This document shows positions 40,036 through 40,518 of a stretch of DNA of 52,168 nucleotides, piece after piece. The notes below the pieces were generated by a model that searched no databases, was not told the DNA's origin, and worked only from the letters and a program-made list of their open reading frames with translations. Both the position numbers and the translations under genes were made by a program. Position 1 is the first letter of the stretch. Each line of letters begins with the position of its first letter. The DNA comes from an uncultured Candidatus Saccharibacteria bacterium. GTDB lineage: Bacteria > Patescibacteriota > Minisyncoccia > Phycocordibacterales > UBA9973. The DNA lies in assembly GCA_964456475.1 (NCBI GenBank), contig CAYVZI010000002.1, positions 52,659 to 104,826 of the forward strand, in the 5' to 3' direction.

Positions 40036-40518
40036 CATTTCACATGAAACTACCCTTCTCCCCCAATTTAATCCCCGATTACGTTACACATGTAACACAA
40101 ACCATTGAAACCGCTGGTTTTGAGGCTTTTATCGTGGGTGGTTGTGTTCGTGATCTTATTATGGGCCGTACTCCAAAAGACTGGGATGTAACAACAAACG
40201 CCACACCAGAACAAATCATTCCCCTATTCGAGAAAACCGTCTACGAGAACAAGTTTGGCACAGTCGGCGTCGTTTTCGAAGAAAACAACGCCGACGTTAC
40301 ACATGTAACACCTAGTATTGTTTCACGTGAAACAAATATGGGTATTTCACATGAAACTGACCCCACTAAACCCTATAACCTAAACCCTAAACCCTACATC
40401 GTCGAAGTCACTCCGTATCGTACTGAGACGACATATTCCGACTCCCGTCATCCAGACAAGATCAAGTTCAGTAAAAACATCGAGGACGACCTTATGCGTC
40501 GTGATTTCACGTGTAACG
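40036..40518. other. Cluster of six parS-like 16-mers inside the cca gene
   Basis: Perfect TGTTTCACGTGAAACA at 40319-40334; variants at 40036, 40082, 40295, 40343, 40503. Confidence 0.8.

What the first reader, a model, noticed from the sequence alone, without database searches (positions are those of the whole stretch)
40036..40518. parS cluster encoded within the CCA-adding enzyme, including a 24-bp-phased triplet
Seen: one perfect TGTTTCACGTGAAACA (40319) and five variants (40036, 40082, 40295, 40343, 40503). Sites at 40295, 40319 and 40343 are spaced exactly 24 bp and translate as an apparent insertion (VTHVT..VSRET..ISHET). One site overlaps the start codon, and one coincides with the conserved RRDFT(I)NA motif, here RRDFTCNA. 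Established: this 16-mer is the widespread ParB-binding parS consensus and is usually origin-proximal. Inference: the chromosome centromere is overprinted on an essential gene, with protein sequence bent to accommodate it.
Basis: partly seen in the sequence, partly recalled or inferred. Interest (0 to 1): 0.62.

Follow-up and report, generated by a model that had tools for sequence, protein, structure and literature searches.

The report
parS centromere array inside cca gene
All seven copies of the chromosome-segregation docking site (parS) in this tiny uncultivated bacterium's genome lie inside the coding sequence of one essential tRNA-repair gene, and keeping them there has visibly reshaped the enzyme; this is a known kind of element in an unusually compact, gene-embedded form.

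Summary
The 784-kb Paceibacteria (CPR) genome holds seven sites within one mismatch of GTTWCACRTGWAAC. All seven lie in 1.39 kb of the cca gene (window 40036-41425). One is the perfect 16-mer.

- **DNA-level signal:** the sites use all three reading frames. At the oldest site, 38 of 42 species with the peptide V[TS][HR]VT use exactly parS-compatible codons, against about 2% expected.
- **Effects on the protein:**
  - The 24-bp-phased triplet is a clade-specific insertion that lengthens a 16-residue hairpin loop to 47 residues. The model predicts it disordered.
  - Cys in RRDFT-C-NA occurs only where it creates a site.
  - A Gly-to-His change creates the seventh site.
- **Partners:** the genome has a canonical three-domain ParB with parS-type specificity residues, a short SMC-like protein and ScpA. 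It has no ParA.
- **Position:** synteny joins contigs C2 and C4, placing the array about 48-52 kb (6-7% of the genome) from the skew minimum, dnaA and the densest DnaA-box cluster.
- **Relatives:** across the order, sites concentrate in cca and the 2 kb upstream; in other orders of the class they sit beside yraN.

This is most likely the chromosome's ParB loading site. ParB binding itself is untested. I class it as a new variant of a known kind.

The parts
40044..41645 (+). The cca gene. It encodes a class II CCA-adding tRNA nucleotidyltransferase with an HD domain (533 aa from ATG 40044; the ORF is open from 40017). It hosts all seven parS-like sites.
   Evidence: Pfam finds PolyA_pol (split in two by the insertion), PolyA_pol_RNAbd, HD and tRNA_NucTran2_2. 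NCBIfam finds CCA tRNA nucleotidyltransferase models. The best PDB and Foldseek matches are 6IBP/6QY6 and 1MIV. The start at 40044 follows from relatives that lack an upstream Met.
40036..40051 (.). Site 1, CATTTCACATGAAACT. Its central ATG is the cca start codon.
   Evidence: The same site is present in genus relatives at the same position, relative nt +20. It lies in reading frame 2.
40082..40097 (.). Site 2, CGTTACACATGTAACA, encoding VTHVT in the N-terminal helix. This is the oldest in-gene site and is kept across genus, family and order.
   Evidence: Of 42 species with the peptide V[TS][HR]VT, 38 use parS-compatible codons, against about 2% expected from codon usage.
40295..40310 (.). Site 3, CGTTACACATGTAACA (VTHVT). 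First of the 24-bp-phased triplet inside the loop insertion.
40319..40334 (.). Site 4, the perfect consensus TGTTTCACGTGAAACA (VSRET). Centre of the triplet.
   Evidence: VSRET is kept in most genus members.
40343..40358 (.). Site 5, TATTTCACATGAAACT (ISHET). Third of the triplet.
40287..40388 (+). Clade-specific in-frame insertion in the head-domain beta-hairpin loop. The loop is 47 aa here against 15-16 aa ancestrally. The insertion is built from parS-coding units and is predicted disordered.
   Evidence: Searches give the alignments (loop length against site number, r = 0.76, n = 88); residues 82-115 are the only segment with pLDDT below 50; about 37 residues more than in the solved CCA enzyme 6IBP.
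40503..40518 (.). Site 6, GATTTCACGTGTAACG, overlapping the catalytic-domain motif RRDFT-C-NA. It lies in reading frame 1.
   Evidence: The variable residue is I, V, M or F in 86 loci, none of which has a site. It is C in 4 loci, all of which have the site.
41410..41425 (.). It was created by a Gly-to-His change in the ancestral ELG[MIV]KPGP.
   Evidence: The site lies in reading frame 2 and is present in about 18 related loci.
37858..38256 (-). yraN-like (UPF0102) nuclease gene. In other lineages of the class it is the usual host or neighbour of the parS cluster. It carries no site in this genome.
   Evidence: Pfam UPF0102. Sites lie inside yraN in relatives. In 16 of 19 loci from other orders, yraN is within the 3-kb parS locus. 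This genome has no site there even at two mismatches.

Best explanation
The seven palindromes are the chromosome's parS array, the loading sites for the genome's single ParB. They are written into the coding sequence of cca.

**Shown:**
- The sites are unique to this gene within the genome.
- They are maintained by selection acting on the DNA rather than on the protein.
- They lie a few percent of the chromosome from oriC.
- They co-occur with a canonical ParB that carries the CTP-binding motif GERRxRA and parS-type specificity residues.

**Inferred:**
- ParB dimers nucleate at these sites, close as CTP-dependent clamps and slide onto flanking DNA.
- Because no ParA exists in this order, the complex most likely acts by recruiting the SMC-ScpA condensin to the origin region to resolve sister origins. 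This resembles the ParA-less Streptococcus and Staphylococcus systems.

**Evolution:**
- The centromere locus is old. It sits at yraN across the class, and at yraN plus cca in this order.
- Individual sites turn over within that locus.
- In this clade, a site that arose by point changes in a 16-residue hairpin loop was multiplied in 24/27-bp (8-9 codon) steps. That lengthened a disordered loop.
- Other sites were created by amino-acid replacements (Ile to Cys, Gly to His) and by use of the start codon.
For: **Uniqueness.** All 7 sites with no more than one mismatch in 784 kb fall in one 1.39-kb stretch.

**Selection on the DNA.**
- The sites occupy all three reading frames.
- At the N-terminal site, 38 of 42 species use exactly GTT-WCA-CRT-GTA-AC, against about 2% expected. 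Invariant V and G codons 17 codons away use all four third bases.
- Cys in RRDFT-C-NA is found only with the site, 4 of 4 against 0 of 86.
- ELGMK changed to ELHMK creates site 7.

**Insertion.**
- Loop length tracks site number (r = 0.76). One species has up to 6 phased sites.
- The model places the only low-confidence segment exactly on the insertion.
- The loop has about 37 residues more than the solved enzyme 6IBP.

**Conservation in relatives.**
- Most genus relatives with sites hold one cluster, with the same spacings. It lies in cca or just upstream.
- In 80 species, site density is 1.44 per kb in cca, 1.21 per kb in the 2 kb upstream and 0.034 per kb elsewhere. The reversed-motif control gives 0.
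- In other orders of the class, the clusters sit beside yraN.

**ParB and partners.**
- Pfam finds ParB_N, HTH_ParB and ParB_C.
- The best PDB matches are Spo0J/ParB structures.
- R173, T179 and G201 are the parS type as defined in PMC7383237.
- ParB is present in 38 of 41 relatives. A ParA-type ATPase scores over the cut-off in 1 of 41 (own genome).
- An SMC-like protein and ScpA are present.

**Position relative to the origin.**
- C2 is followed by C4, by synteny with two genus genomes.
- The skew minimum is at C4 33-37 kb, dnaA at 39.2 kb, and 5 DnaA boxes at 40.6 kb.
- In eight relatives the parS cluster is 15-46 kb from dnaA.
Against: - There is no binding data of any kind.
- Six of the seven sites differ from the canonical 16-mer at 3-4 positions. 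In model organisms (own knowledge) such sites bind ParB weakly.
- Two DNA-contact positions that are conserved in the ParB and Noc families are changed here: H for Q162 and R for K171, by motif mapping onto PMC7383237.
- No ParA exists, so classical ParA-driven partition cannot apply.
- The parB gene is unlinked from parS.
- The SMC-like protein has only 746 aa and no detectable hinge domain, so the SMC-loading step is the weakest inference.
- In this genome the array is about 50 kb from oriC rather than adjacent to it.
Confidence: 0.85

Rival explanations
1. The palindromes are operators for some other DNA-binding protein, for example a transcription factor that controls cca. They are not ParB sites.
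For: One site covers the start codon, and several lie in the 5' third of the gene. Most sites deviate from the strict 16-mer.
Against: - One site is the perfect parS 16-mer, and the family consensus tGTTwCAYRTGwAACa is parS.
- The sites spread over 1.4 kb of coding DNA, to within about 220 bp of the 3' end of the gene.
- In other lineages the cluster lies in or next to a different gene, yraN.
- ParB with parS-type residues is present in 38 of 41 relatives.
Confidence: 0.04
2. The repeats reflect selection on the protein: a functional peptide repeat V-[ST]-[HR]-[VE]-T in the enzyme. The DNA palindrome is only a by-product.
For: Four sites share one reading frame and encode similar pentapeptides.
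Against: - The other three sites lie in the two other frames and encode unrelated peptides: F-H-M-K, D-F-T-C-N and L-H-M-K.
- Synonymous positions are almost invariant, 38 of 42 against about 2% expected.
- The insertion is predicted disordered and varies from 17 to 78 aa between species.
- The same motif occurs in yraN and in non-coding DNA of relatives.
Confidence: 0.02
3. The sites do bind ParB, but their main role is regulatory. ParB occupancy tunes cca expression, or marks a DnaA-box/origin-related control region. Chromosome organisation is not the main role.
For: - A site overlaps the start codon.
- A pair of DnaA boxes lies 1.3 kb upstream, at window 38768 and 38789.
- In G025, G034 and G021 the skew minimum falls at or near the parS locus rather than at dnaA.
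Against: - In this genome the skew minimum and the only dense DnaA-box cluster are next to dnaA, about 50 kb away.
- The host gene differs between lineages (yraN or cca), which argues against a cca-specific regulatory role.
- In model bacteria (own knowledge), ParB spreading has little effect on neighbouring chromosomal genes.
Confidence: 0.07
4. The array is a relic of a small mobile or repeat element inserted into cca and has no present function.
For: The triplet lies in an insertion. A 7-bp microsatellite lies next to it. Mobile-looking ORFs sit between yraN and cca.
Against: - There are no copies elsewhere in the genome.
- Site positions are conserved across species with only 50-77% protein identity.
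- Purifying selection acts on synonymous positions.
Confidence: 0.02

Closest known systems
Bacillus subtilis Spo0J(ParB)/parS sites (Lin & Grossman 1998; Breier & Grossman 2007; own knowledge)
   Same: - The 16-bp palindrome tGTTNCACGTGAAACa is the same, and the fifth base is tolerated as variable.
- The sites are origin-proximal.
- Several sites lie inside coding sequences, the founding one inside spo0J itself.
- ParB is a CTP-dependent clamp that recruits SMC.
   Different: - Here all sites of the genome are packed into 1.4 kb of one essential gene, instead of being scattered over the origin domain.
- The central dinucleotide is relaxed to YR.
- The sites have caused an insertion and residue replacements in the host protein.
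- There is no ParA (Soj).
- parB is unlinked from parS and oriC.
ParA-less ParB-parS-SMC systems of Streptococcus pneumoniae and Staphylococcus aureus (Minnen et al. 2011, own knowledge; S. aureus 'incomplete partition system' in the abstract of bioRxiv 10.64898/2026.03.06.710092)
   Same: ParB, parS and an SMC complex are present and ParA is absent. ParB presumably acts by loading condensin at the origin region.
   Different: - The organism belongs to a different phylum (Patescibacteria) with a genome of about 0.8 Mb.
- The SMC-like protein is short (746 aa) and has no detectable hinge.
- The sites are gene-embedded and clustered.
Clustered origin-proximal parS arrays, such as the four sites closest to oriC in Pseudomonas aeruginosa (PMC4368675) and the arrays next to parAB in Caulobacter, Myxococcus and Corynebacterium (own knowledge)
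   Same: Several parS copies lie within a few kb and serve as one centromere near oriC.
   Different: Those arrays are linked to parAB and other origin-region genes. Here the array is linked to yraN and cca, is unlinked from parB, and is almost wholly coding.
Noc and its binding site NBS (PMC7383237)
   Same: Noc is a paralogous HTH protein. It is the top NCBIfam hit of this ParB, though below that model's cut-off.
   Different: - NBS is ATTTCCCGGGAAAT, whereas the sites here are of the parS type.
- The protein has R173 and G201 (ParB type), not Q173 and R201.
- It is therefore not a member of the Noc family.

Membership tests
Chromosomal parS (ParB-binding centromere site) | 16-bp palindrome matching tGTTtCACGTGAAACa | tested here: met
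   One site matches perfectly (40319-40334). Six differ at 3-4 positions from the strict 16-mer, but at no more than one from the lineage core GTTWCACRTGWAAC. A logo of 192 related sites gives tGTTwCAYRTGwAACa.
Chromosomal parS (ParB-binding centromere site) | A cognate ParB with an HTH domain and parS-type specificity residues is encoded in the genome | tested here: met
   Pfam finds ParB_N, HTH_ParB and ParB_C. The protein has the GERRLRA and ENLQRADL motifs, and its best PDB matches are Spo0J/ParB. R173, T179 and G201 follow the definition in PMC7383237. However, H replaces Q162 and R replaces K171.
Chromosomal parS (ParB-binding centromere site) | Origin-proximal location | tested here: met
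   The array is about 48-52 kb (6-7% of 784 kb) from the skew minimum, dnaA and the DnaA-box cluster, once C2 and C4 are joined by synteny. It is 15-46 kb from dnaA in eight relatives.
Chromosomal parS (ParB-binding centromere site) | Rare or absent elsewhere in the chromosome | tested here: met
   No site with one mismatch or fewer lies outside cca in the 784-kb genome. In the 619-kb genome G021, 6 of 7 such sites lie within 2.4 kb.
Chromosomal parS (ParB-binding centromere site) | Specific binding and CTP-dependent loading of ParB | not testable with these tools
   This needs EMSA or BLI with purified ParB, or ChIP-seq.
Complete ParABS partition system | A ParA (Soj) deviant Walker-A ATPase partner | tested here: not met
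   No KGGxGK[ST] motif occurs in any ORF of 80 aa or more. No AAA_31 hit exceeds the cut-off in this genome, and only 1 of 41 relatives has one. The system is therefore not a full ParABS system. It resembles the ParA-less ParB-parS-SMC systems.
ParB-parS-SMC origin-organising system | SMC and the kleisin ScpA are present | tested here: inconclusive
   The SMC-like protein matches TIGR02168 at E = 3.5e-150 but scores below that model's cut-off. It has 746 aa and no Pfam hinge hit. ScpA is present. ScpB was not searched for.
Class II CCA-adding enzyme (host gene) | PolyA_pol head domain with GGxVRD and RRD motifs, a neck/body RNA-binding region, and a class II fold | tested here: met
   Domain hits. 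The model has mean pLDDT 85.6. Top Foldseek matches are 6QY6 and 1MIV. Whether it adds CCA, CC or A was not tested.
Noc/NBS nucleoid-occlusion system | NBS-type site (ATTTCCCGGGAAAT) and Q173/R201 in the protein | tested here: not met
   The sites have CAYRTG centres, not CCCGGG. The protein has R173 and G201. It scores 181.7 bits on TIGR04285, below the 315-bit cut-off.

The most novel reading that the evidence does not exclude
The array is not merely tolerated in cca. Under this reading:
- Selection for more ParB-loading sites repeatedly amplifies a 24-bp parS unit in frame. A centromere then grows inside an enzyme and migrates between yraN and cca by site turnover.
- ParB clamps loaded over the start codon and the 5' third of cca couple expression of the CCA-adding enzyme to the replication and segregation state of the chromosome, in a ParA-less minimal cell.
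Probability: 0.12. Interest if true: 0.8.

Novelty: new variant of a known kind. Interest (0 to 1): 0.6.

Why it matters
parS and ParB are textbook elements, and single parS sites inside genes are known. Three things are new here.

- **No earlier description found.** The searched literature gave no account of a centromere for Patescibacteria/CPR.
- **Where it sits.** The whole ParB-loading array is written into an essential housekeeping gene. It is unlinked from parB and has no ParA partner.
- **What it did to the protein.** A cis-acting DNA element has driven protein evolution:
  - A loop grew from 16 residues to 47 here, and to as many as 78 in relatives.
  - The growth is made of centromere repeats.
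  - Residues were also replaced at a conserved catalytic-domain motif.

It gives a concrete, testable entry point to chromosome segregation in ultra-small bacteria. It also gives a practical marker for the origin-proximal region in fragmented CPR assemblies.

Tried and rejected
- **Tandem repeat of the triplet.** Tandem Repeats Finder does not score the 24-bp triplet. The spacers have diverged and only a 7-bp CTAAACC microsatellite is reported. Tandem duplication is therefore inferred from relatives with 24/27-bp arrays of up to 6 sites, not from this sequence alone.
- **Origin at the cca locus.** Earlier notes suggested this, and the skew minima of G025, G034 and G021 fit it. I rejected it for this genome: the skew keeps falling for about 48 kb past the array, to dnaA, where the only dense DnaA-box cluster lies.
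- **Spread beyond the order.** A strict composite pattern (N-terminal site plus VGGCVRD) matched only this genome and one same-family genome out of 401 phylum-wide. The in-cca N-terminal site was thus not found outside this order in that sample. The looser class-level search instead found yraN as the common neighbour.
- **Literature.** Searches for parS together with CPR or with tRNA nucleotidyltransferase returned nothing relevant. The Livny et al. 2007 survey is not held.
- **mRNA hairpin.** I considered and set aside the idea that the palindromes act as mRNA hairpins. This was reasoned from the sequence and not computed (no fold was run): a 14-nt perfect palindrome leaves no loop, and the sites also occur on the other strand and in non-coding DNA of relatives.

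Full report
**Observation**

- The perfect TGTTTCACGTGAAACA lies at 40319-40334.
- Variants lie at 40036, 40082, 40295, 40343 and 40503.
- The variants differ from the strict 16-mer at 3-4 positions, but from the 14-bp core GTTWCACRTGWAAC at no more than one.
- A seventh site at 41410-41425 was missed.
- Sites 40295, 40319 and 40343 are exactly 24 bp apart.

In the window the core pattern gives 12 strand-matches against 0.14 expected from shuffles. The window is C2:52659-104826 of a 784,347-bp assembly in 20 contigs. In that whole genome, all seven positions with no more than one mismatch lie in this one 1.39-kb stretch. About 0.06 exact and 2.4 one-mismatch matches are expected genome-wide.

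**Host gene**

The ORF 40017-41645 is a class II CCA-adding enzyme with an HD domain.
- Pfam finds PolyA_pol, PolyA_pol_RNAbd, HD and tRNA_NucTran2_2.
- NCBIfam CCA models match.
- The best solved relatives are 6IBP and 1MIV.
- The Foldseek top hits are CCA enzymes.

Genus relatives have no Met upstream of the conserved F-x-M-K. The true start is therefore ATG 40044, the centre of site 1.

**The signal lies in the DNA, not the protein**

The seven sites use all three reading frames:
- VTHVT, VTHVT, VSRET and ISHET in frame 0;
- D-F-T-C-N in frame 1;
- F-H-M-K and L-H-M-K in frame 2.

The N-terminal site was examined in 85 related genes. Where the site is present, the codons are always GTT-WCA-CRT-GTA-ACN, while the invariant V and G codons of VGGCVRD, 17 codons downstream, use all four third bases. 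Of 42 species with the peptide V[TS][HR]VT, 38 use exactly parS-compatible codons. Codon usage in the same genes predicts about 2%.

**Effects on the protein**

- *Loop insertion.* The stretch between FGTV and VTPYR is a 15-16-residue hairpin in 50 site-free relatives (for example gvvnedtedetlkvie).
  - In a few species a single VSRET site sits in that short loop with no insertion.
  - In the clade containing this genus the loop is 17-78 residues and holds 1-6 sites, mostly 24 or 27 bp apart.
  - Loop length and site number correlate at r = 0.76 over 88 genes.
  - The loop has about 37 residues more than the solved enzyme 6IBP.
  - An AlphaFold2 model (mean pLDDT 85.6) has only one segment below pLDDT 50, residues 82-115, which is the insertion.
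- *RRDFT-X-NA.* X is I, V, M or F in 86 loci, and none of these has a site. X is Cys in 4 loci (3 species), and all 4 have the site.
- *Site 7.* It exists because the ancestral ELG[MIV]KPGP became ELHMKPGP.

**Partners**

The genome has one ParB, on contig C7. It has the N-terminal, HTH and C-terminal dimerisation domains, the GERRLRA and ENLQRADL motifs, and best PDB matches to Spo0J/ParB of Thermus, Myxococcus, Caulobacter, Bacillus and Helicobacter.

I mapped the protein by motif onto the Caulobacter numbering used in PMC7383237.
- It carries R173, T179, M184 and G201, which is the parS type. The Noc type is Q, K, K, R.
- It also has H at Q162 and R at K171, two contact positions that are otherwise conserved.

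Other partners:
- No ParA exists. No deviant Walker-A motif occurs in any ORF, and no AAA_31 hit exceeds the cut-off.
- Across 41 relatives, ParB is present in 38 and a ParA-type hit over the cut-off in 1.
- An SMC-like protein of 746 aa matches TIGR02168 at E = 3.5e-150 but has no Pfam hinge hit.
- ScpA is present.

**Position**

- Cumulative GC skew falls along C2 and reaches its minimum at C4 33-37 kb, next to dnaA at 39.2 kb.
- The only dense DnaA-box cluster in the genome, 5 boxes in 600 bp, lies just after dnaA at C4:40.6 kb.
- Synteny with two genus genomes shows that the end of C2 is followed directly by the start of C4.
- The array is therefore about 48-52 kb, or 6-7% of the chromosome, from the origin.
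- In eight relatives where both loci share a contig, the cluster is 15-46 kb from dnaA.
- In G025, G034 and G021 the skew minimum falls at or near the parS locus instead of at dnaA. In G000 and G040 it falls at dnaA. I leave this difference unexplained.

**Comparative picture**

- *Close relatives.* Among 40 relatives, most genus members hold exact-core sites in a single locus with the same spacings. tblastn shows these loci are cca or the 0.5-1.3 kb upstream of it.
- *Eighty species.* These are labelled Paceibacterota, Nomurabacteria, Kaiserbacteria, Taylorbacteria, Yonathbacteria, Wolfebacteria or Campbellbacteria.
  - Site density is 1.44 per kb in cca, 1.21 per kb in the 2 kb upstream and 0.034 per kb in the rest of the 10-kb flanks.
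  - The reversed-motif control gives no matches.
- *Upstream sites.* They largely fall in the yraN-like (UPF0102) gene.
- *Other orders of the class.* In a 61-genome sample, 20 genomes (one of them this genome) have exact 16-mers, mostly in one cluster per genome. In 16 of the 19 loci outside this genome, yraN lies within the 3-kb locus. Some lineages use a CATATG centre.
- *Phylum sample.* A strict test for the N-terminal in-cca site found it only in this genome and one same-family genome out of 401.

The yraN-cca locus is therefore an old centromere locus. In this genus, all sites now lie inside cca. The window's own yraN (37858-38256) has none, even at two mismatches.

**Mechanism**

Shown: a unique, conserved, origin-proximal parS array under DNA-level selection, together with a canonical ParB.

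Inferred:
- ParB nucleates at the array, closes as a CTP clamp and spreads.
- Without ParA, its likely output is recruitment of SMC-ScpA to the origin region. This resembles the ParA-less systems of Streptococcus pneumoniae and Staphylococcus aureus (own knowledge; the abstract of bioRxiv 10.64898/2026.03.06.710092 describes an incomplete partition system in S. aureus).
- The short, apparently hinge-less SMC makes this last step the least secure.

**Novelty**

parS sites inside genes are known; the first B. subtilis site lies in spo0J (own knowledge). Clustered origin-proximal arrays are also known, for example in P. aeruginosa (PMC4368675). Full-text searches found nothing on parS in CPR bacteria or in cca. 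Earlier notes of this scan describe the same arrangement in other genomes. I read them only after my own analysis and treat them as leads, not as evidence. I class the finding as a new variant of a known kind: a complete, gene-embedded centromere array that has remodelled its host enzyme, in a ParA-less lineage.

Noticed in passing
window 40366-40396: A 7-bp microsatellite, CTAAACC x 4.4, lies inside the cca loop insertion and encodes KPYNLNPKPY. It contains two CCCTAAA units, the reverse complement of the plant-type telomere repeat. It is probably replication slippage that adds to the loop.
   Followed up: no
G000:C6:41988-44237 (outside the window): The only SMC-like protein has 746 aa, against about 1180 for typical bacterial SMC. 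It matches TIGR02168 strongly, but Pfam finds no hinge domain. ScpA is at C1:41583-42233.
   Followed up: partly
L001:1357-2484 (G000:C7:5008-6135): ParB has H in place of Q162 and R in place of K171 (Caulobacter numbering). PMC7383237 reports both contact residues as conserved in the ParB and Noc families. This may relate to the relaxed site consensus (A/T at half-site position 4, YR centre).
   Followed up: partly
G021:C1, G025:C1 (relatives): The parB gene is far from parS and from oriC: 245 kb against 538 kb in G021, and 98 kb against 340 kb in G025. This differs from the usual parAB-oriC linkage.
   Followed up: no
L176-L185 (G025, G034) and L032-L062 (G021): In three relatives the cumulative GC-skew minimum coincides with the parS/cca locus, 35-46 kb from dnaA. 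In this genome and in G040 it coincides with dnaA. The origin position may differ between lineages, or the skew may be too noisy at this scale.
   Followed up: partly
window 38768-38797 and G000:C4:40627-41227: A pair of DnaA boxes (TTATACACA and TTATCCACA) lies 1.3 kb upstream of the array. The only dense cluster in the genome, 5 boxes in 600 bp, lies just downstream of dnaA on C4.
   Followed up: partly
L157 (G445:C12:3275-5679): A genome from another order of the class has nine exact 16-mers in 2.4 kb. Eight are TGTTTCATATGAAACA, so the centre is CATATG instead of CACGTG. This suggests a lineage-specific shift in the central dinucleotide.
   Followed up: no
window 38934-39674 (-); L139:8332-9039 and 9233-9940: An HTH-bearing 246-aa ORF lies between yraN and cca and overlaps tRNA-Gly(GCC). 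A distant relative has two similar copies in the same intergenic position. It may be a mobile or homing-type gene that targets the tRNA/centromere locus.
   Followed up: no
window 40044-41645: cca is on the strand with negative GC skew and is transcribed towards oriC. It is therefore head-on to replication, and it is preceded by tRNA-Arg(TCG) at 39688-39760 on the same strand.
   Followed up: no
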